DNA of 64,000 nt from the NCBI RefSeq assembly GCF_044324875.1, contig NZ_CP172185.1; one strand, 5' to 3'. This stretch comes from Escherichia coli (GTDB lineage Bacteria > Pseudomonadota > Gammaproteobacteria > Enterobacterales > Enterobacteriaceae). The notes beneath the pieces are model-generated. The model saw only the letters and a program-made list of their open reading frames with translations, was not told where the DNA came from and made no database searches. Below are positions 4,320 through 33,777 of the stretch, one piece after another (position 1 is the stretch's first letter; every line of letters starts with the position of its first letter). The position numbers and the translations under genes are program-made.

Positions 4320-7031
<2,712 letters not shown>

Positions 7032-7533
7032 TCACTTCACTGTGGAAAATGAGGAAATATTATTTTTTTTGCGCTTCGTAATTAATGGTTATAAGGTCGG
7101 CCAGAAACCTTTCTAATGCAAGCGATGACGTTTTTTTATGTGTCTGAATTTGCACTCTGTCACAATTCCAAATCTTTATTAATGACTCACCTAAAACGAC
7201 GCTGATACAGCGTGAATGCTGGGTTGTACGGTATTTCCCTTATGTTCATCAGATTCATTTAAGCAAGGGTTTCTTCTTCATTCCTGATGAAAGTGCTATC
7301 TAAAAAGATGATCTTAATAAATCTATTAAGAATGAGATGGAGCACACTGGATATTTTACTTATGAAACTGTTTCACTCCTTTACTTAATTTATAGAGTTA
7401 CCTTCCGCTTTTTGAAAATACGCAACGGCCATTTTTTGCACTTAGATACAGATTTTCTGCGCTGTATGGCATTGATTTGCTGCTAATCCTGTGGTTTGCA
7501 CTAGCTTTAAGTGGTCGAGATCACATTTCCTTG

Positions 7534-23660: not shown

Positions 23661-25729
<2,069 letters not shown>

Positions 25730-25743
25730 ATAAAACGGGAGGC

Positions 25744-25773
25744 GAAGGTGCCTCCCGTTTTGCTTTCTATAAG
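25744..25773. terminator. bidirectional rho-independent terminator between envZ and pck
   Basis: aaaacgggaggc-gaag-gtgcctcccgtttt hairpin flanked by A-run and T-run. Confidence 0.6.
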
Positions 25774-25805
25774 ATACTGGATAGATATTCTCCAGCTTCA
25801 AACCA

Positions 25806-27428
25806 TTACAGTTTCGGACCTGCTTCTACCAGCGCGGCACCCGCAGGGGTGTCGGTGTATTTATCGAAGTTGTCGATAAACAGTTTCGCCAGGGTTTCAG
25901 CTTTTTCCTGCCACTGTTCCGGAGAAGCGTAGGTATTACGCGGATCGAGGATCCTGGTGTCTACGCCCGGCAGTTCAGTTGGGATCGCCAGGTTAAACAT
26001 CGGCAAAGTGAAGGTTTCTGCGTTATCCAGCGAACCGTTGAGGATGGCGTCGATAATGGCGCGGGTATCTTTAATGGAGATACGTTTGCCAGTGCCGTTC
26101 CAGCCGGTGTTAACCAGATACGCCTGCGCGCCTGCCGCCTGCATACGTTTCACCAGCACTTCTGCGTACTGAGTCGGGTGCAGCGACAGGAATGCCGCGC
26201 CGAAGCAGGCAGAGAAAGTTGGCGTCGGTTCGGTGATGCCACGCTCAGTACCGGCCAGTTTGGCGGTGAAGCCAGAGAGGAAGTGGTACTGGGTTTGATC
26301 GGCCGTCAGACGAGAAACCGGTGGCAGCACACCAAAGGCGTCTGCGGTCAGGAAGATAACTTTCGTTGCGTGGCCCGCTTTGGAAACCGGCTTAACGATG
26401 TTATCGATGTGATAGATCGGATAAGAAACGCGGGTGTTCTCGGTTTTTGAACCATCATCAAAGTCGATAGTGCCATCTTCACGCACGGTGACGTTTTCCA
26501 GCAGCGCATCGCGACGGATAGCGTTGTAGATTTCAGGTTCCGCTTCTTTCGACAGCTTGATAGTTTTTGCGTAGCAGCCGCCTTCGAAGTTAAACACGCC
26601 GTCATCGTCCCAGCCGTGTTCGTCATCGCCAATCAGGCGACGTTTCGGGTCGGTGGAAAGGGTGGTTTTACCGGTGCCGGAAAGGCCGAAGAACACCGCA
26701 ACATCGCCTTTCTCGCCAACGTTGGCGGAGCAGTGCATAGAAGCGATACCTTTCAGCGGCAGCAGGTAGTTCATCATTGAGAACATCCCTTTCTTCATTT
26801 CGCCGCCGTACCAGGTGCCGCCAATCAGCTGCATGCGCTCGGTCAGGTTAAACGCCACGAAGTTTTCGGAATTCAGACCCTGTTCTTTCCACTGCGGGTT
26901 AGTGCACTTCGCGCCGTTCATAACGATAAAGTCTGGTTTGAAACCTGCCAGCTCTTCATCGCTCGGGCGAATAAACATGTTTTTGACAAAATGCGCCTGC
27001 CAGGCCACTTCGGTGATGAAACGGACGGAAAGACGAGTATCCGGGTTCGCACCACAGAAAGCGTCGACAACGAACAGACGTTTGCCGGAAAGCTGTTTGG
27101 TCACCAGGCTTTTCAGATGCTGCCAGGTTTCCGGAGAGAGAGGTTTGTTGTCGTTCTTACCTTTGCCTTTGTCTGCCCACCAGAAAGTATCGCGAGTGGT
27201 ATCGTCACGGACGATATACTTATCTTTTGGTGAACGACCGGTGAAGATCCCGGTATCGACGGCAACGGCACCCAGATTAGTTAACACCCCGCGCTCATAA
27301 CCTGTCAGGCTCGGATCGAGCTCTTCCTGATACAGCAGGTCGTAGCTTGGGTTGTAAACGATATCATGTACGTCACTGATACCATAAGCCTCGAGTTCTT
27401 GCGGGGTCAAACCATTGTTAACGCGCAT
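25806..27428 (-). CDS. pck: phosphoenolpyruvate carboxykinase (ATP)
   Basis: 540-aa frame from [17 protein letters not shown]; kinase P-loop GLSGTGKTT. Confidence 0.95.
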
Positions 27429-27806
27429 TTCACTGCTCCTTAGCCAATATGTATTGCCTGAATAGTAAAGTCTTTTTGGGGGTGTTAACCGCGACAAGGC
27501 TCATAGATTTACGTATCTGGAGAAATTCATATTTGACAAAAAACTCCGTGATTCCTGTCACGAAACGGTTGCTATTATCGCAGAAATAGCATTTTAGGTG
27601 TGGAAAATGTTCTTAAAAGGTTAAATCTTGGTTTATATGGCGGGAATATTGTGAGTGGAATCGCATTCCGGAATGAAATTGATGCAAATTCAATCGGTAA
27701 AGTATCGATTCACCACGCTAACTTTTTTTGATTATTTTCTGAAAAAAGCAAAATACTACGGCCCGGATGCGATAATTAACCCACGTTTTGATTCTGGATA
27801 ACTAAC

Positions 27807-29531
27807 ATGGATAACGTTGAACTTTCACCCGCAACACGCTGGGGGATGATTGCTACCGGATTACTTCAGGGTCTGGTTTGCTACCTACTGATCGCCTGGC
27901 TTGCCGGAAAAAATCTCAGTTGGATTGTTTATGGCGTGCCTGCGACCGTCGCGTTTTCATCCGTTTTACTCTTCTCCGTGATCTCCTTTAAACAGAAGCG
28001 CCTTTGGGGATGGCTGGCGCTGGTGTTTATTGCCACGCTAGGGATGAGCGGTTGGCTAAAGTGGCAAATTGATGGCATGAACCCCTGGAGAGCTGAAAAG
28101 GCGCTTTGGGATTTTGGCTGCTATCTGCTGCTGATGGCAATGTTGTTGCTACCGTGGATACAACAAAGCCTTCGCATCCGCAATGACAGTAGCCGCTATC
28201 GCTATTTTTACCAGTCAGTATGGCATAACGTACTTATATTACTGGTGATTTTTCTCGCCAATGGCCTGACATGGCTGGTACTTTTACTGTGGGGCGAGTT
28301 GTTTAAACTTGTTGGCATCACGTTTTTCAAAACGATCTTTTTTGCAACCGACTGGTTTATTTATCTCACGTTAGGTCTGGTTACCGCACTGGCGGTGATC
28401 CTCGCGCGTACACAGTCACGTTTAATCGACTCTATTCAAAAGTTGTTCACGTTAATCGCCACGGGGTTGCTGCCGTTAGTATCATTGCTAACCCTGATGT
28501 TTATCATCACCCTGCCGTTTACGGGCCTGAGCGCGATTTCTCGCCACATTTCCGCCGCCGGGTTGCTGTTGACGCTGGCCTTTTTGCAATTGATCTTAAT
28601 GGCTATTGTCCGCGATCCGCAAAAATCGTCACTTCCCTGGACGGGGCCGTTGCGTTGCCTGATTAAAACCGCTCTGCTGGCTGCTCCGCTGTATGTGTTC
28701 GTCGCCGCCTGGGCGTTATGGCTGCGGGTCGCTCAGTACGGCTGGACTGTCGACCGCTTGCAGGGCGCGCTGGCAGTGCTGGTGTTACTGGTATGGTCGC
28801 TGGGGTATTTTGTCAGTATCGTCTGGCGTAAAGGGCAAAACCCCCTTGTTCTTCAGGGCAAAGTGAACCTTGCGGTTTCGTTATTGGTGTTGGTAATACT
28901 GGTGCTTCTTAATTCTCCGGTGCTGGACAGTATGCGCATTAGCGTGAACAGTCATATGGCGCGTTATCAGAGCGGCAAAAACACGCCAGACCAGGTAAGT
29001 CTCTATATGCTCGAACAGAGCGGTCGCTATGGACGTGCGGCGCTTGAGTCGCTGAAAAGCGATGCCGGGTTTATGAAAGACCCGAAACGCGCGCGGGATC
29101 TGTTGATGGCGTTAGATGGAGAGCAACATCTTCAGCAACAGATATCGGAAAAAGTATTAGCCGAAAATGTGTTAATTGCCCCTGGTTCTGGTAAACCGGA
29201 TGCGACATTCTGGTCGGCCTTAATCCAGGATCGCTATAACGTGATGACCTGTATTGAAAAAGACGCCTGCGTACTGGTCGAGCAAGATCTGAATAGTGAT
29301 GGCAGGGCAGAGCGGATCCTCTTTGCCTTTGATGATGAAAGATACATTGTCTATGGCTTTGATCCTGACAAGAAAGAATGGCAAGAGCTTACGATGAGTT
29401 TACTTCCGCGTGATATAACGAAAGAAAAATTACTCACAGCTGCGAAGGATGGAAAACTGGGAACGAAGCCTAAAGCGTGGCGCGATCTTGTAGTGGATGG
29501 TGAAAGGCTGGATGTGAATCTGAATGAGTGA
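27807..29531 (+). CDS. yhgE: uncharacterised polytopic inner-membrane protein with hydrophilic C-terminal domain
   Basis: 574-aa ORF; about 10 hydrophobic segments in first ~400 aa, then soluble ~170-aa C-terminus. Confidence 0.8.
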
Positions 29532-29562
29532 CAAAGCGCATCAGGTGTATTAGTCGTAAAAT

Positions 29563-29586
29563 CCGGCAGAGCTCTCTCTGCCGGAC
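29563..29586. terminator. hairpin between convergent yhgE and hslO
   Basis: tccggcagag-ctct-ctctgccgga inverted repeat. Confidence 0.5.
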
Positions 29587-29593
29587 ATACTCA

Positions 29594-30472
29594 TTAATGA
29601 ACTTGCGGATCTGCCGGGGACGCGTTGTTGCGGATTTCAGCAATATCCATCGCATTGAACAGATAGTGGTTACCGCAGTAATCGCAATGCATGTCAATTT
29701 CGCCATCTTCCGCCAGGATGCTATCGACTTCTTCATCCGGCAGCGTTTTTAGCGCGTCGGCGCAACGTTCACGCGAGCAGGTGCATTTGAACTCCACATC
29801 CTGCGGATCGTAAACCGTCACCTCTTCTTCGTGATACAAACGCCACAACACTTCGTTTGCCGGTAAGGTCAACAGTTCTTCGGTTTTGATGGTTTCGGTT
29901 AGCGTCGCCAGGTGGTCAAAGTCGTCCTGCTGGGCATTTTGCGCAGGCATTACCTGCAACAACATACCGCCTGCAGCCGGTTTGCCGTCTACGTCGCCGG
30001 TGCGAATAAAAAGGCGCGTCGGCAGCTGTTCAGAACGCATAAAGTAATCTTCCAGGCAGGCCGCCAGGGTATCACCTTCCAGACCCACCACGCCCTGATA
30101 GCGTTCACCTTCGCTTGGGGTGATGGTGATCACCACGTAACCATTGCCGACCAGCGTTTTCAGGTCGGCATTTTCTGGAATTTCTCCCTGCACGCGCGCT
30201 ACACCGCGCATCTGCTGGTTGTTGTTACCGTTAATAACCGCCAGATTCATCGGACCGTCGCCTTGCAGCTGTACGGTGATATCACCATCAAACTTCAGCG
30301 TAGCGGTTAACAGGCTGGTCGCAACCAGCAGTTCTGCCAGCACGTTTTTAACGGGTTGCGGATAATCGTGATTCTCAAGGATCTGTTGCAGGGTTTCCGA
30401 AACGGTTACCAGTTCGCCGCGCACGGCAAAGTTTTCAAACAGATAGCGATGTAATTGGTCATGTTGCGGCAT
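29594..30472 (-). CDS. hslO: redox-regulated chaperone Hsp33
   Basis: 292-aa frame; C-terminal zinc centre CTCSRERC...CDYCGNHY. Confidence 0.9.
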
Positions 30473-30496
30473 AATCATCTCTCTTGCAGGTGACAG

Positions 30497-30898
30497 TTAT
30501 TCACTGTCGCCGTGTTTAAATCGTAACAGGTCGCGGCGCTCTTTTTTGTCCGGGCGTCGGTCCGGGTGCGGCATGGTTAAGGCATTAAGTTTACGTGCCA
30601 GCGCCATTTTTTCGCGTTTCTCTACACTTTCCGCAGTCTCTTCATACAGCAAGGCTGCCTCGCTGGCGGGGCGACGCTGTTCAGTAATCGCCTTTACAAT
30701 CACCGTGCGTTCGTCATTTCCCTGGCGCAGAGTGAGCGTGGCATTCAGCTCGACGATTTTGCTCGGCTTGCTGCGCTGCCCGTTGTAATGCACCTTACCG
30801 CCTTCAATCATTTCACGGGCCAGCGCGCGGGTTTTATAAAAACGGGCAGCCCATAGCCATTTATCCAGTCGAACCTCAACAGCAGGTTTTTCTTTCAT
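30497..30898 (-). CDS. hslR: ribosome-associated heat-shock protein Hsp15 (S4 domain)
   Basis: 133-aa ORF upstream of hslO. Confidence 0.9.
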   Translation of the reverse strand: MKEKPAVEVRLDKWLWAARFYKTRALAREMIEGGKVHYNGQRSKPSKIVELNATLTLRQGNDERTVIVKAITEQRRPASEAALLYEETAESVEKREKMALARKLNALTMPHPDRRPDKKERRDLLRFKHGDSE

Positions 30899-30908
30899 GG
30901 CGTCTCCT

Positions 30909-31577
30909 TCACATTAGCGAGGGGATCAGGCGGCGGTAGTCATTCAGTGACGGATGGCGTTGATACTGTTTCTCGGCAATCCCGGAATCAGGATTAGTCA
31001 CGCCGAGGCAGTAACGAATACCAAATTGCGCGGCAGCATCGAGAATCGCTTCGCTGTCATCAATAAACAGCGTTCTTTCAGCTTTCAGACCCGTAGCTTC
31101 GGCCACCGCATGCCATAACCGCTGATCCTCTTTCGGATAACCAAATGTGTGGGTGGAAAGTAATAAATCAAGGTGTGCGTCCAGACCGGTATGCTCAAGT
31201 TTTACCGCCAGGTTGTGCGGATGAGCATTGGTGAGCAAAATTCGCTGCTTACCGCTGGCTTTCAGTGCCTCAAGAAACGGAATGGTATCTTCACGCAGTA
31301 CGGCACGCGGTCCCATCTCGGTGGTCATCGCACAGATATCCAGACCCAGTTGCTCACTCCAGTAATCAAGACAGTACCAGTTTAGCGTATGCTGTACGTC
31401 GTGATATTGCTGGCGCATATATTCCATCGCTTCCTGTGGCGTAACCCCGTTTTTCGCGCCCCATGTTTCAGGCACCAGCTTTTGCCAGAAATAGTTATCG
31501 AAGGCGAGGTCGAGCAACGTGCCGTCCATATCCAGCAGAACGGTATCTACGTCCTGCCAGGCAATGTTGATATGCAT
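30909..31577 (-). CDS. yrfG: HAD-superfamily purine nucleotidase
   Basis: 222-aa frame from MHINIAWQDVDTVLLDMDGTLLD; HAD motif I DMDGT. Confidence 0.85.
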   Translation of the reverse strand: MHINIAWQDVDTVLLDMDGTLLDLAFDNYFWQKLVPETWGAKNGVTPQEAMEYMRQQYHDVQHTLNWYCLDYWSEQLGLDICAMTTEMGPRAVLREDTIPFLEALKASGKQRILLTNAHPHNLAVKLEHTGLDAHLDLLLSTHTFGYPKEDQRLWHAVAEATGLKAERTLFIDDSEAILDAAAQFGIRYCLGVTNPDSGIAEKQYQRHPSLNDYRRLIPSLM

Positions 31578-31641
31578 GAGGGAAATCTCCAGAGTGAAGC
31601 AATTTGCGCGACAGGGTAGCATAACCTGCCGCGCAAACGTG

Positions 31642-33777
31642 TTATTCGATAAGGCTTTCTGAAGGGGTGATCAGTTGCGGGTTCAGGCAGCTTTCATAAT
31701 AGGCCTGAATCTTCATCATGCGAGTACGATGACGCTGGTAACGACGCCAGGCCTGTACGCCATTATAAATGGCGCTACCCAGCATCGTCAGTAGCAGCAG
31801 TGTGGTGCTGAGATAGCGCCACAGGCCGGAACGATCCGGGATCGGATGAAGGCCTATATGCTGCGTACCATTGGCGTCAGTGAAGATTTTTGTGACGATA
31901 CCTTCGGCGTTAAACGGCGTATGCATCAGCATTTGTGCCAGTTTCTGGAAAGCGTTCCACTGTTCTTGCGGCGGGTAGTCGTAAAGTGATGCCGAAGGCC
32001 AGGGCTGATCAACAAAATCGCTGCCTTCGTCGCTGACAATCAGGAATCCACCGGGAGCCGGACTGTTTAGTGATTGTGCCGCTCGCGCCGTTTCATGCGT
32101 GATAAACGGCGCGGTGGAGGTTGCCACCAGGTTATCCAGTGATTCCGCACTCACCGGGCGTAATAACACATTCACGCCATCGAGTTTCCCGGCGTTGGCG
32201 CGTTTTACCAGCGCGTCCCAGTCTTTACTGTTGCCGAGATTGACCAGCGCATTTTTCAGTCGCACACAGTCATCTTTGGCATAACACAGATCCGCTGTCT
32301 TCAGTACTATGTCGCCAAAATCATCAAGCAATACCATGCCGGATTTTTGAATTGCTGAACGTAATGAGGCGCTGACGCGAGATTCATCTTCCGGTTTAGG
32401 GTGCAGCTGGCGATTAACTGCTTCGGTCAATGCCGTCGCTTTGTTGACCAATTCAGATTCTGGTAATGGCAATGAGCGGGCGTCATTCCAGATGATCTGC
32501 GAGCAGTCAAACGGTAAAAAAGGTGAGTTGGTTTTCGCGCTCCAGGTACCGGAAGTGCGAATATTACACATTCCCGTACCGCTAATACGCAATGTATCGC
32601 CAACCCGCACGCCAGCGTCAGCCAGTTGTTTCACGCTGGTGGCTTCAATGGTCTGCGCGCCTTTCATCCACGAGAGGGTGAATTTCAGCGGCATATCCAG
32701 CGGGATCCAGAATAACAGCATAAACAGCACCAGTAGCGAGCCCGCAGCGATAATCGTACTGCGCAGCCAGTGCTGTAACGGAAAGTTTTTTACTTCATCA
32801 TGGAGCGAAAGATATCGCCCCTGACGCACTACGTGGCGGTCGAGATAGATATCGATATCGGTTTGTTGACCGAGATCCTGAGCAATGTATGGCTGCCAGT
32901 GTGCGGGGTAGACCAGGTCGATAATACCGAGTGAAATATTGTTGATCTGTTCCTGATCGTTTTCGCCAAACAATCCCCAACGACGGGGTGTACCGCGCAG
33001 ACAATGAATTTCCCGCAGGGAGGATTTTGCCGGGGGCGCGAATAGCCCCCACAGACCTGCGCCCAGCAGCAGTAACGCGCCGCCTGCCAGCCACGGAACA
33101 AATACATCCGGGGTAATCAGGCAGAAAAAGAACATTAGGAATGAGGCGACAATCAGCAACGCTTCACGCAGCCCGCGCGGACGACTTAGCGCATACTCTT
33201 CGTGCGTTTCTTTGCGAATATTGAGTAGCTCGATTTGCTCACTCTCTTCCCCGCGAATCGACGCCTGTGTTGACGGAACAGGTTGCAAGGCATAGCCGCG
33301 AGTTTCCTGCATGTACTCCTGCAGCGTATGACCGTTGAGTGAAATAACCAGCGGCAGCGAATCGGTATGAATCAGTTCAACGGTATTCTCATCGTTGATG
33401 TACTGCTCCCAGAAAGGGGGCAGGTGGACTTCTACCGAATCGAGGTAGTAACGCCATTTATTCGGATCGTCGGTAGAGATGCCGTAACGCGTGATAGCGT
33501 GTGTCAGCATCATGACGTTGTTGCTTTCGGCATTCAGCGCCAGAGAGATCGGTGCCGCGCTGGCTCCCGTTGGGCCAGGCACCTGTAATACCTGCGTCAG
33601 GCTCTCAAGATAATTTTCAACGGCGCTATGTTCTTCAGGTGTGAGTTTACGCGTTTGCGCATCCGCGAAGGCGTTGGTCCAGGGCAGCTGACGCCGTCTG
33701 GATCGCACTTTTATCAGCCATCCCGCAAGTAGTGAGCAGGCCAGCAAAGCAGCTAAAAAAATCACAATGGTGCTCAT
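31642..33777 (-). CDS. igaA: inner-membrane attenuator of the Rcs phosphorelay IgaA
   Basis: 711-aa ORF recognised as YrfF/IgaA. Confidence 0.9.
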   Translation of the reverse strand: MSTIVIFLAALLACSLLAGWLIKVRSRRRQLPWTNAFADAQTRKLTPEEHSAVENYLESLTQVLQVPGPTGASAAPISLALNAESNNVMMLTHAITRYGISTDDPNKWRYYLDSVEVHLPPFWEQYINDENTVELIHTDSLPLVISLNGHTLQEYMQETRGYALQPVPSTQASIRGEESEQIELLNIRKETHEEYALSRPRGLREALLIVASFLMFFFCLITPDVFVPWLAGGALLLLGAGLWGLFAPPAKSSLREIHCLRGTPRRWGLFGENDQEQINNISLGIIDLVYPAHWQPYIAQDLGQQTDIDIYLDRHVVRQGRYLSLHDEVKNFPLQHWLRSTIIAAGSLLVLFMLLFWIPLDMPLKFTLSWMKGAQTIEATSVKQLADAGVRVGDTLRISGTGMCNIRTSGTWSAKTNSPFLPFDCSQIIWNDARSLPLPESELVNKATALTEAVNRQLHPKPEDESRVSASLRSAIQKSGMVLLDDFGDIVLKTADLCYAKDDCVRLKNALVNLGNSKDWDALVKRANAGKLDGVNVLLRPVSAESLDNLVATSTAPFITHETARAAQSLNSPAPGGFLIVSDEGSDFVDQPWPSASLYDYPPQEQWNAFQKLAQMLMHTPFNAEGIVTKIFTDANGTQHIGLHPIPDRSGLWRYLSTTLLLLTMLGSAIYNGVQAWRRYQRHRTRMMKIQAYYESCLNPQLITPSESLIE

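What the first reader, a model, noticed from the sequence alone, without database searches (positions are those of the whole stretch)
27807..29531. yhgE: large membrane protein of unknown function between pck and hslO
The 574-aa ORF has about ten hydrophobic segments over roughly 400 residues followed by a ~170-residue hydrophilic C-terminal domain. It stands alone between a bidirectional terminator and a hairpin, so is probably monocistronic. I know of no assigned function.
Basis: inference. Interest (0 to 1): 0.3.

Follow-up and report, generated by a model that had tools for sequence, protein, structure and literature searches.

The report
yhgE: uncharacterised DUF4153 inner-membrane protein
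This is the known E. coli gene yhgE, a real inner-membrane protein whose function is still unknown; it fits no characterised transporter family or solved structure, and it evolves several times faster than its neighbours and is often lost in related bacteria.

Summary
The ORF at 27807..29531 (+), 574 aa, is real and is E. coli yhgE (b3402). It is present in 5425 of 5426 complete E. coli genomes and RefSeq calls it a "DUF4153 domain-containing protein".

- There are 11 transmembrane helices (residues 8-368), not about ten.
- The hydrophilic C-terminal domain is about 200 residues, not about 170.
- Upstream lies the 378-bp divergent pckA/yhgE promoter region, not a terminator.
- The downstream hairpin is hslO's terminator.

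New points from this work:
- The topology is N-in/C-out, so the C-terminal domain is periplasmic. It has a conserved Cys pair and an FG-GAP-like DxNxDGxxE loop.
- The most conserved residues sit at the periplasmic membrane interface.
- dN/dS is 0.09-0.16, against 0.01-0.09 for neighbouring genes, and no window exceeds 1.
- 41 of 80 Enterobacteriaceae species have pckA directly beside hslO with no yhgE match.
- Gene neighbourhood is not conserved outside the family Enterobacteriaceae.

Function remains unknown. My best guess, at low confidence, is a dispensable envelope protein that handles an anionic amphipathic ligand at the periplasmic leaflet.

The parts
27807..29531 (+). yhgE coding sequence (574 aa plus stop)
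   Evidence: ORF list. RefSeq annotation in 5425 of 5426 E. coli genomes. The N-terminus MDNVELS... is conserved in Escherichia, Citrobacter and Salmonella.
27828..28910 (+). Membrane domain: 11 transmembrane helices, residues 8-368, N-terminus cytoplasmic
   Evidence: Hydropathy gives 11 segments. The AF2 model has pLDDT 94.2 and pTM 0.88. K+R bias is 14.6 in even loops against 5.8 in odd loops, in 78 of 78 homologues.
27960..29051 (+). Pfam DUF4153 (PF13687) match, residues 52-415
   Evidence: E = 4.3e-30, 105.5 bits against a cut-off of 27, covering profile positions 3-372 of 373.
28725..28757 (+). Periplasmic loop between TM9 and TM10, R307-x2-Q-Y-G-W-T-x2-R317; the most conserved motif of the family
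   Evidence: R307 in 78/78, Q310 70/78, Y311 67/78, G312 77/78, W313 61/78, R317 77/78.
28929..29528 (+). C-terminal periplasmic domain, residues 375-574: helical subdomain 375-485 and beta-meander subdomain 488-568
   Evidence: AF2 models of the full protein and of the isolated domain, pLDDT 94.2 and 94.6. C-out topology. DUF7057 (PF23167) matches 17 of 50 homologous C-terminal domains, but not the query itself.
29250..29270 (+). Conserved cysteine pair C482 and C488 (inferred periplasmic disulfide)
   Evidence: Each is conserved in 72 of 78 homologues. The Cys count in the domain is 2 or 4 in 67 of 78.
29286..29312 (+). FG-GAP-like loop D494-L-N-S-D498-G-R-A-E502, between the first two beta strands
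27429..27806 (.). Divergent pckA/yhgE intergenic regulatory region; CRP site at 27650-27665
   Evidence: Sequence. CRP ChIP site TGTGAGTGGAATCGCA assigned to yhgE/pck in PMC4287617 and located here. The 90 bp nearest yhgE (27717-27806) are missing together with the gene in species that lack yhgE.
29563..29584 (-). Hairpin in the 62-bp yhgE/hslO convergent spacer; intrinsic terminator of hslO
   Evidence: 10-bp stem, -26.6 kcal/mol for the 76-nt context, z = -3.9. UUUU follows the stem only on the minus strand.

Best explanation
**Shown.** yhgE is a genuine, stand-alone chromosomal gene for a 574-residue inner-membrane protein of the uncharacterised DUF4153 family. It has eleven transmembrane helices. 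The N-terminus is cytoplasmic. The roughly 200-residue C-terminal domain is periplasmic. That domain has a helical part and a four-stranded beta meander, a conserved Cys482/Cys488 pair and an FG-GAP-like D-x-N-x-D-G-x-x-E loop. The protein belongs to no characterised transporter family, and its membrane fold has no counterpart among solved structures.

**Inferred.**
- The residues that stay fixed across the family form a belt at the periplasmic membrane interface. They are L165/F166, F174/F178, F184, F232/L236/P237/G240, R307-QYGW-R317, P371/D374 and Q383/R386.
- Almost no conserved charged residue sits inside the membrane core, and no conserved His/Ser/Lys/Cys catalytic set is visible.
- I therefore think the working site faces the outer leaflet of the inner membrane. 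There it would bind or hand over an anionic, amphipathic envelope molecule, such as a phospholipid or a polyprenyl-phosphate-linked or lipid-A-type molecule. Arginines would hold the phosphate and aromatic residues the hydrophobic or sugar part.
- The periplasmic domain would act as a cap or partner-binding module, possibly dependent on Ca2+.
- The role is accessory. Selection on the protein is purifying but several-fold weaker than on its neighbours, and the gene has been lost from the pckA-hslO site in about half of the Enterobacteriaceae species sampled.
For: **Identity and family**
-.
- The family is large and keeps the full-length architecture: 2048 50%-identity clusters, with matches spanning residues 5-571 down to 25% identity.

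**Topology**
- the K+R bias holds in 78 of 78 sequences, and Cys counts are even.

**Structure**
- pLDDT 94.2 for the full protein and 94.6 for the C-terminal domain.

**No known fold or family**
-.

**Conserved periplasmic-face residues**
-.
- FG-GAP-like loop and DUF7057.

**Purifying but relaxed selection in five clades**
- yhgE dN/dS is 0.086-0.164; neighbours are 0.014-0.085.

**Syntenic orthologues**
- Only 32-58% identical where PckA and HslO are 86-95% identical.
- pckA directly abuts hslO, with no yhgE match, in 41 of 80 species.

**Stand-alone gene**
- No conserved neighbours in the eight loci examined from outside Enterobacteriaceae (seven distinct contexts).

**Expression**
- 3.3-fold lower at the exponential-to-stationary transition in O157:H7 (PMC2241611).
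Against: - The ligand and the mechanism are inference from residue conservation and topology only. I could not inspect model coordinates, so a pocket is not demonstrated.
- No operon partner, phenotype or biochemical datum points to lipids or glycolipids.
- The published phenotypes are anecdotal and confounded: a long lag in one transposon mutant (PMC5996734), and a start-codon mutation that co-occurs with a cyaA stop in an ampicillin-tolerant line (PMC7394356).
- Conserved arginines in a periplasmic loop could equally serve structure or a protein partner.
- Secondary transporters also often lack detectable sequence repeats, so the missing repeat is weak evidence.
Confidence: 0.55

Rival explanations
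1. YhgE is a secondary transporter or channel for a small solute, as the old K-12 name 'putative transport protein YhgE' implies.
For: It is a polytopic protein with 11 TM helices. K-12 RefSeq still carries the name 'putative transport protein'. Novel transporter folds continue to be found.
Against: - No Pfam or NCBIfam transporter profile matches.
- No PDB sequence or profile match.
- No internal repeat by hhalign.
- Conserved residues sit at the periplasmic interface rather than in a mid-membrane polar site.
- There is no substrate-related neighbour gene in any context.
Confidence: 0.2
2. YhgE is mainly a target in a conflict: an inner-membrane protein used by phages, bacteriocins or contact-dependent toxins for entry. 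That would explain its fast divergence and frequent loss.
For: - dN/dS is about 3-9 times that of the neighbours' median in each clade, and the identity drop is very large.
- The gene shows presence/absence polymorphism even within genera.
- Touchon et al. 2009 list YhgE among E. coli hotspots of phylogenetic incongruence and suggest diversifying selection (PMC2617782).
- The periplasmic beta subdomain is the fastest part in Escherichia, with omega 0.39.
- Two homologues lie a few kb from T6SS or PAAR-toxin genes.
Against: - No region or 30-codon window reaches omega above 1; the maximum is 0.64.
- Variation among 88 Escherichia proteins is spread almost evenly over membrane, cytoplasmic and periplasmic parts.
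- The gene is retained in 5425 of 5426 E. coli genomes.
- No report of YhgE as a receptor turned up in the literature searched.
- PADLOC and PHROGs are negative.
Confidence: 0.1
3. YhgE is a sensor or regulatory membrane partner. Its periplasmic domain would detect an envelope signal and pass it to another protein through the membrane domain.
For: - It has a large periplasmic domain with a putative Ca2+-type loop.
- DUF4153 was once filed in the Cache sensor clan (PMC4822843).
- In Salmonella the pckA/yhgE region is an SprB target in the invasion regulon (PMC6726612 and PMC5013294).
Against: - There is no cytoplasmic output domain; cytoplasmic loops are 23 residues or shorter.
- DUF4153 was removed from the Cache clan as unrelated.
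- No conserved two-component or other signalling neighbour is present.
- Some homologues appear to lack the C-terminal domain, at 433-483 aa.
Confidence: 0.1
4. yhgE is a functionless or decaying gene that persists by chance.
For: Divergence is fast, about half of the sampled species have lost it, and many truncated fragments exist in databases.
Against: - dN/dS is 0.09-0.16 in five independent clades, which means purifying selection.
- The ORF is intact in essentially all E. coli genomes.
- The family has 2048 50%-identity clusters with invariant residues.
- The model is very confident, which needs a coherent co-evolution signal.
Confidence: 0.03

Closest known systems
Pfam DUF4153 (PF13687) / E. 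coli K-12 YhgE (b3402)
   Same: It is this family and this gene. The Pfam match is full length, and the position between pckA and hslO is identical.
   Different: Nothing differs. The window allele is 95.1% identical in protein to K-12, with 28 substitutions, 12 of them in residues 500-536.
Pfam DUF7057 (PF23167), C-terminal domain of some DUF4153 proteins
   Same: 17 of 50 homologous C-terminal domains, and the best profile hit (Tahibacter, P0404), carry it. It occupies the same position after the last TM helix.
   Different: The E. coli sequence itself does not reach any reportable score against PF23167. The family is also uncharacterised.
FG-GAP / integrin-type propeller blade with a Ca2+-binding hairpin loop
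   Same: The D-x-[ND]-x-D-G-x-x-[ED] loop lies between the first two strands of a four-stranded antiparallel sheet. There are weak FG-GAP_3 hits in 8 of 50 homologues and weak fold matches to ITFG2 and WD40 blades.
   Different: It is a single blade-like unit, not a propeller. No hit reaches Pfam's threshold, and Ca2+ binding is untested.
Polytopic enzymes and flippases acting on lipid-linked substrates at the periplasmic leaflet (WaaL, Wzy, ArnT/GT-C, MurJ/Wzx)
   Same: The general layout is shared: 10-14 TM helices plus periplasmic elements, and conserved arginines at the periplasmic interface. This is an analogy recalled from knowledge of those families.
Gram-positive YhgE/Pip phage infection protein
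   Same: Only the name, and the fact that both are membrane proteins.
   Different: They are unrelated. The NCBIfam scan returned no family at all, and no YhgE/Pip or ABC-2 profile was among the Pfam matches. Most papers found under 'yhgE' concern the Gram-positive protein or a Lactococcus pilin.

Membership tests
DUF4153 (PF13687) | Score above Pfam's gathering cut-off over the whole model | tested here: met
   105.5 bits against a cut-off of 27, E = 4.3e-30, profile positions 3-372 of 373. 72 of 78 homologues also match.
DUF7057 (PF23167) | Profile match in the C-terminal domain | tested here: inconclusive
   The query C-terminus has no match at E up to 10. However, 17 of 50 aligned homologous domains match, best E = 1.4e-9, so homology holds only by transitivity.
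FG-GAP repeat (PF01839 / PF13517) | Profile match at Pfam's threshold; repeats forming a beta-propeller | tested here: not met
   Only sub-threshold hits, in 8 of 50 homologues and none in the query. The model shows one blade-like sheet. The motif resemblance remains.
Characterised transporter superfamilies (MFS, APC/LeuT, MOP, RND, ABC, SulP and others) | Profile match or shared fold with a solved member | tested here: not met
Characterised transporter superfamilies (MFS, APC/LeuT, MOP, RND, ABC, SulP and others) | Internal structural or sequence repeat | tested here: not met
   hhalign of TM1-4, TM5-8 and TM9-11 against each other gives probability 7% or less. This tests sequence only; structural pseudo-symmetry could not be examined.
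GT-C glycosyltransferases / WaaL / Wzy | Shared fold, and acidic or His catalytic residues in an extended first periplasmic loop | tested here: not met
Cache / PAS-like extracytoplasmic sensors | Cache fold between two TM helices plus a cytoplasmic output domain | tested here: not met
YhgE/Pip phage infection protein (Gram-positive) | A YhgE/Pip or ABC-2 type profile match | tested here: not met
   The NCBIfam scan returned no family, and Pfam returned only DUF4153.
Anti-phage defence systems / phage proteins | PADLOC or PHROGs profile match | tested here: not met
   No family matched at E up to 1.

The most novel reading that the evidence does not exclude
DUF4153 is a membrane-protein fold with no solved representative. 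It would carry out a still-unknown envelope activity at the periplasmic leaflet, for example handling a lipid-linked or anionic lipid molecule with a Ca2+-dependent periplasmic cap. Its unusually fast divergence and repeated loss would reflect either adaptation to lineage-specific envelope chemistry or exploitation as an entry receptor by phages or toxins.
Probability: 0.2. Interest if true: 0.65.

Novelty: already known. Interest (0 to 1): 0.3.

Why it matters
yhgE is one of the remaining genes of unknown function in the E. coli core genome. This work turns "unknown membrane protein" into testable statements.
- The C-terminus is periplasmic, with a likely disulfide and a Ca2+-type loop.
- There is a short list of invariant periplasm-facing residues to mutate (R307, G312, R317, P371, Q383, R386, G409).
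- The fold is absent from the PDB, which makes it a worthwhile structural target.
- The evolutionary profile (weak constraint, frequent loss, stand-alone gene) predicts a conditional, accessory role rather than a housekeeping transporter.

If the fold turns out to carry a new envelope activity, it would annotate about 2000 protein clusters. Otherwise this is an ordinary, already catalogued y-gene.

Tried and rejected
**Fold and family searches**
Fold comparison is therefore limited to the PDB.
- PADLOC, PHROGs and NCBIfam gave nothing.
- Rfam on 25500-31000 gave only chance hits.
- The last two word-indexed protein searches added almost nothing. The C-terminal profile found only yhgE fragments, and the full profile found only 'DUF4153' names.

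**Locus and neighbourhood searches**
- The search for related loci with alignments A1 and A2 failed because no stretch was conserved enough. I anchored the genome scan on the conserved neighbour HslO instead.
- The search for conserved gene neighbours outside Enterobacteriaceae found none in eight loci (seven distinct contexts).

**Evolutionary tests**
- The internal-repeat test by hhalign was negative.
- Positive selection was rejected at region and window level, with a maximum omega of 0.64. Proper site models were not run.
- Horizontal acquisition was rejected: GC is 0.50 and GC3 0.56, like the neighbours. dS against K-12 equals that of the neighbours. Identity falls with species distance.
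- The empty-site junction analysis shows only that homology stops at the end of the conserved pckA regulatory region. It does not show a mobile cassette.
- My first Citrobacter pckA dN/dS value (0.41) was an artefact of an in-frame stop in L015. The corrected value is 0.019.

**Literature**
- The TraDIS supplement of Chaudhuri et al. 2013 held no retrievable yhgE entry.

Full report
**1. What is there**

The window holds an ATG-initiated ORF at 27807..29531 (+) of 574 codons. Megablast places the 2.5-kb region in 5425 of 5426 complete E. coli genomes. RefSeq annotates exactly this ORF as "yhgE: DUF4153 domain-containing protein". In K-12 it is b3402, still called "putative transport protein YhgE".

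The gene order in the window is ompR, envZ (+), pckA (-), yhgE (+), then hslO, hslR, yrfG, igaA (-).

- yhgE is divergent from pckA across a 378-bp intergenic region (27429-27806).
- That region contains the CRP site TGTGAGTGGAATCGCA at 27650-27665. PMC4287617 reports this site for yhgE/pck.
- yhgE is convergent with hslO across 62 bp.
The envZ/pckA hairpin at 25731-25762 is 2 kb away.
- The hairpin after yhgE (29563-29584, 10-bp stem, z = -3.9) is followed by a U-run only on the minus strand. It is therefore the hslO terminator.
- Base composition is native: GC 0.50 and GC3 0.56.

**2. Anatomy of the protein**

Hydropathy finds 11 hydrophobic segments between residues 14 and 373. An AlphaFold2 model built on 78 diverse homologues is very confident (pLDDT 94.2, pTM 0.88). 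It shows 11 transmembrane helices (residues 8-368) and a short amphipathic helix (173-180). The C-terminal domain consists of helices 375-485 and a beta part: strands 488-493, 502-507, 512-519 and 524-532, helix 539-547, and a hairpin at 561-568. The isolated domain folds the same way (pLDDT 94.6).

The positive-inside rule is unambiguous. Across the family, loops 0, 2, 4 ... 10 carry 14.6 Lys+Arg on average, against 5.8 for the odd loops, and this holds in 78 of 78 sequences. The N-terminus is therefore cytoplasmic and the C-terminal domain periplasmic. Consistent with an oxidising compartment, C482 and C488 are each conserved in 72 of 78 homologues, and the domain has 2 or 4 cysteines in 67 of 78.

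**3. Family and comparison with what is known**

- Pfam gives one match, DUF4153 (PF13687), E = 4.3e-30, covering residues 52-415.
- NCBIfam, PADLOC and PHROGs give nothing.
- The C-terminal domain of the query matches no Pfam model. However, 17 of 50 homologous domains match DUF7057, which is also uncharacterised.
- An exhaustive HMMER search finds 2048 clusters at 50% identity. Full-length matches (residues 5-571) persist down to about 25% identity, so the two-part architecture is old and conserved. Every source name seen is "DUF4153 domain-containing protein", "inner membrane protein" or "hypothetical".
- Sequence and profile searches of all PDB chains find nothing better than E = 0.05.
- Foldseek against the whole PDB finds no hit at E of 0.001 or below. 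The best are MurJ and WzxE at E about 0.35-0.8, with TM-scores of 0.12-0.15.
- No internal sequence repeat is detectable.

The membrane fold is unrepresented among solved structures. AFDB50 could not be searched.

DUF4153 once sat in Pfam's Cache clan but was shown to be unrelated (PMC4822843). The Gram-positive YhgE/Pip phage infection protein shares only the name.

**4. Where conservation sits**

Across 78 homologues the conserved core is TM5-TM11; TM1-4 and the C-terminal domain vary more.

Residues conserved in at least 80% of sequences cluster at the periplasmic ends of helices and in periplasmic elements:
- L165/F166 (end of TM5)
- F174/F178 (amphipathic helix)
- F184
- F232/L236/P237/G240/L241 (end of TM7)
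- the TM9-TM10 loop: R307 (78/78), Q310, Y311, G312 (77/78), W313, R317 (77/78)
- P371 (78/78) and D374
- Q383 and R386 in the helix that follows TM11
- G406 and G409 (78/78)

Conserved charged residues inside the bilayer are essentially absent, and no conserved His/Ser/Lys/Cys set suggests catalysis.

From this I infer, without having been able to inspect coordinates, that the functional surface faces the outer leaflet of the inner membrane. Arginines plus an aromatic belt fit an anionic amphipathic ligand.

**5. Evolutionary behaviour (not in the original finding)**

*Against K-12.* yhgE has the same dS as its neighbours (0.105, against 0.10-0.13 for ompR, envZ, pckA and hslO) but 33 non-synonymous changes. 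Its dN/dS is 0.244, against 0-0.034 for the neighbours. Twelve of the 28 amino-acid differences fall in residues 500-536.

*Against Atlantibacter hermannii.* The gene order is identical. Amino-acid identities are as follows:

| Protein | Identity to the window (%) |
|---|---|
| OmpR | 99.6 |
| EnvZ | 92.7 |
| PckA | 91.1 |
| HslO | 88.4 |
| HslR | 83.5 |
| YrfG | 80.2 |
| IgaA | 70.1 |
| YhgE | 33.2 |

*Across Enterobacteriaceae.* I anchored a genome scan on HslO and recovered the locus from 80 species. YhgE identity to the window is as follows:

| Group | YhgE identity (%) |
|---|---|
| Escherichia | 84-90 |
| Pseudocitrobacter | 61-70 |
| Citrobacter, Salmonella | 56-58 |
| Kluyvera | 53-54 |
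| Intestinirhabdus | 50 |
| Enterobacter, Leclercia, Lelliottia, Huaxiibacter | 42-47 |
| Cedecea, Siccibacter | 36-38 |
| Atlantibacter | 32 |

PckA, by comparison, is 87-99% identical over full-length matches and HslO 86-99%. Identity falls with species distance, which fits vertical descent.

*Pairwise Nei-Gojobori dN/dS within five clades*:

| Clade | yhgE | Neighbour genes |
|---|---|---|
| Escherichia | 0.164 | 0.014-0.058 |
| Citrobacter | 0.108 | 0.019-0.061 |
| Kluyvera | 0.146 | 0.022-0.085 |
| Enterobacter-like | 0.151 | 0.030-0.078 |
| Cedecea-like | 0.086 | 0.017-0.071 |

- No domain or 30-codon window exceeds 1. The highest values are 0.39 for the beta subdomain and 0.64 for a window, both in Escherichia.
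- Variation among 88 Escherichia proteins is spread almost evenly.
- This is weak purifying selection, not demonstrated positive selection. Touchon et al. 2009 listed YhgE among hotspots of phylogenetic incongruence and suggested diversifying selection (PMC2617782). My data neither confirm nor exclude site-specific selection.

*Loss.* In 41 of the 80 species there is no yhgE match and pckA starts 272-955 bp after hslO. These include E. albertii, Klebsiella, Raoultella, Buttiauxella, Kosakonia, Phytobacter and several Enterobacter, Lelliottia, Atlantibacter, Citrobacter and Pseudocitrobacter species. In E. albertii, homology to the window resumes 90 bp upstream of the yhgE start codon, so the gene and its proximal promoter are both missing. 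Presence and absence both occur within single genera, which indicates repeated recent loss. E. coli itself keeps the gene almost universally.

**6. Context elsewhere and literature**

In eight loci examined from outside Enterobacteriaceae (seven distinct contexts: Pragia and metagenomic Proteobacteria), the neighbours are all different. Where the upstream gene lies on the same strand, the gap is 98-318 bp. This argues for a stand-alone gene with no conserved partner.

The literature offers only incidental mentions:
- a CRP ChIP site and a GalR ChIP site;
- weak sigma-factor SELEX peaks in the hslO/yhgE spacer;
- a 3.3-fold decrease at entry into stationary phase in O157:H7;
- a transposon mutant with a long lag;
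- a start-codon mutation together with a cyaA stop in an ampicillin-tolerant evolved line;
- in Salmonella, membership of the SprB regulon via the pckA/yhgE region.

None of these assigns a function.

**7. Explanation and rivals**

*Shown.* This is a real, expressed-type gene for an 11-TM, N-in/C-out inner-membrane protein of the DUF4153 family. It has a periplasmic alpha/beta domain, belongs to no characterised transporter or enzyme family, and has no fold match in the PDB. It is weakly constrained, often lost, and stand-alone.

*Inferred (about 25% confidence for the specific mechanism).* It acts at the periplasmic leaflet on an anionic amphipathic envelope molecule, with the periplasmic domain as a cap or partner-binding module, possibly Ca2+-dependent.

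*Rivals.*
- A small-solute transporter with a novel fold (about 0.2).
- A receptor caught in a phage or toxin arms race (about 0.1).
- A sensor or regulatory partner (about 0.1).
- A decaying gene (about 0.03; contradicted by dN/dS well below 1).

**8. Verdict**

The finding is correct in substance, but it describes an already catalogued E. coli y-gene. It is ordinary as a genome feature and modestly interesting as a known unknown. The grounds for interest are a fold absent from the PDB, the clear topology with testable residues, and the atypically fast, loss-prone evolution.

Noticed in passing
L013 (E. albertii) 6877-7272; also L023, L029, L061, L087 and 36 other loci: yhgE is absent from the hslO-pckA interval in 41 of 80 Enterobacteriaceae species representatives. 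Each empty site has its own hslO terminator hairpin. Homology to the window resumes at about 27713-27717.
   Followed up: yes
window 27807-29531 compared with 23661-33777: yhgE dN/dS is several-fold higher than that of every neighbour in five clades. Its dS also tends to be higher than that of pckA and hslO (0.41 against 0.22-0.25 in Escherichia), possibly from low codon bias or recombination.
   Followed up: partly
L015 (Citrobacter youngae CCUG 30791), pckA codon 84: There is an in-frame TGA in pckA in this assembly, either a sequencing error or a pseudogene. It corrupted my first Citrobacter pckA dN/dS estimate.
   Followed up: partly
L003 868-4437 (Pragia fontium); L091 1-1859: Two yhgE homologues outside Enterobacteriaceae lie a few kb from contact-weapon genes: a PAAR-Pyocin_S toxin with four CdiI_5 immunity genes, and VipA/VipB/Hcp of a T6SS. 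This is probably coincidence.
   Followed up: no
proteins P0363, P0121, P0119, P0373, P0105: Truncated yhgE products of 199-444 aa represent clusters with 111-288 member sequences each. They may be frameshifted alleles in some E. coli/Shigella lineages or contig-end partials. Shigella flexneri variants of 542 aa also exist.
   Followed up: no
window 25731-25762: A strong 14-bp-stem hairpin sits between the convergent envZ and pckA genes.
   Followed up: yes
window 25806-27497 and 29594-30478: The mechanical ORFs of pckA (TTG at 27497) and hslO (ATG at 30478) extend upstream of the annotated starts (27428 and 30472).
   Followed up: yes
window 31642-33777 (igaA): igaA is the second fastest-evolving gene of the block: 70% amino-acid identity to Atlantibacter, against 80-99.6% for the other neighbours apart from yhgE.
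   Followed up: no
E. coli genome collection: One of 5430 matches to yhgE lies on a plasmid, and one genome (strain S14, H70) has two places with a partial copy.
   Followed up: no
window 27300-29800: The window's closest relative in the collection is E. coli strain MEW from an ivory gull (99.7%). Most E. coli are only 95-99% identical over this region, so the window carries a minority yhgE allele group.
   Followed up: partly
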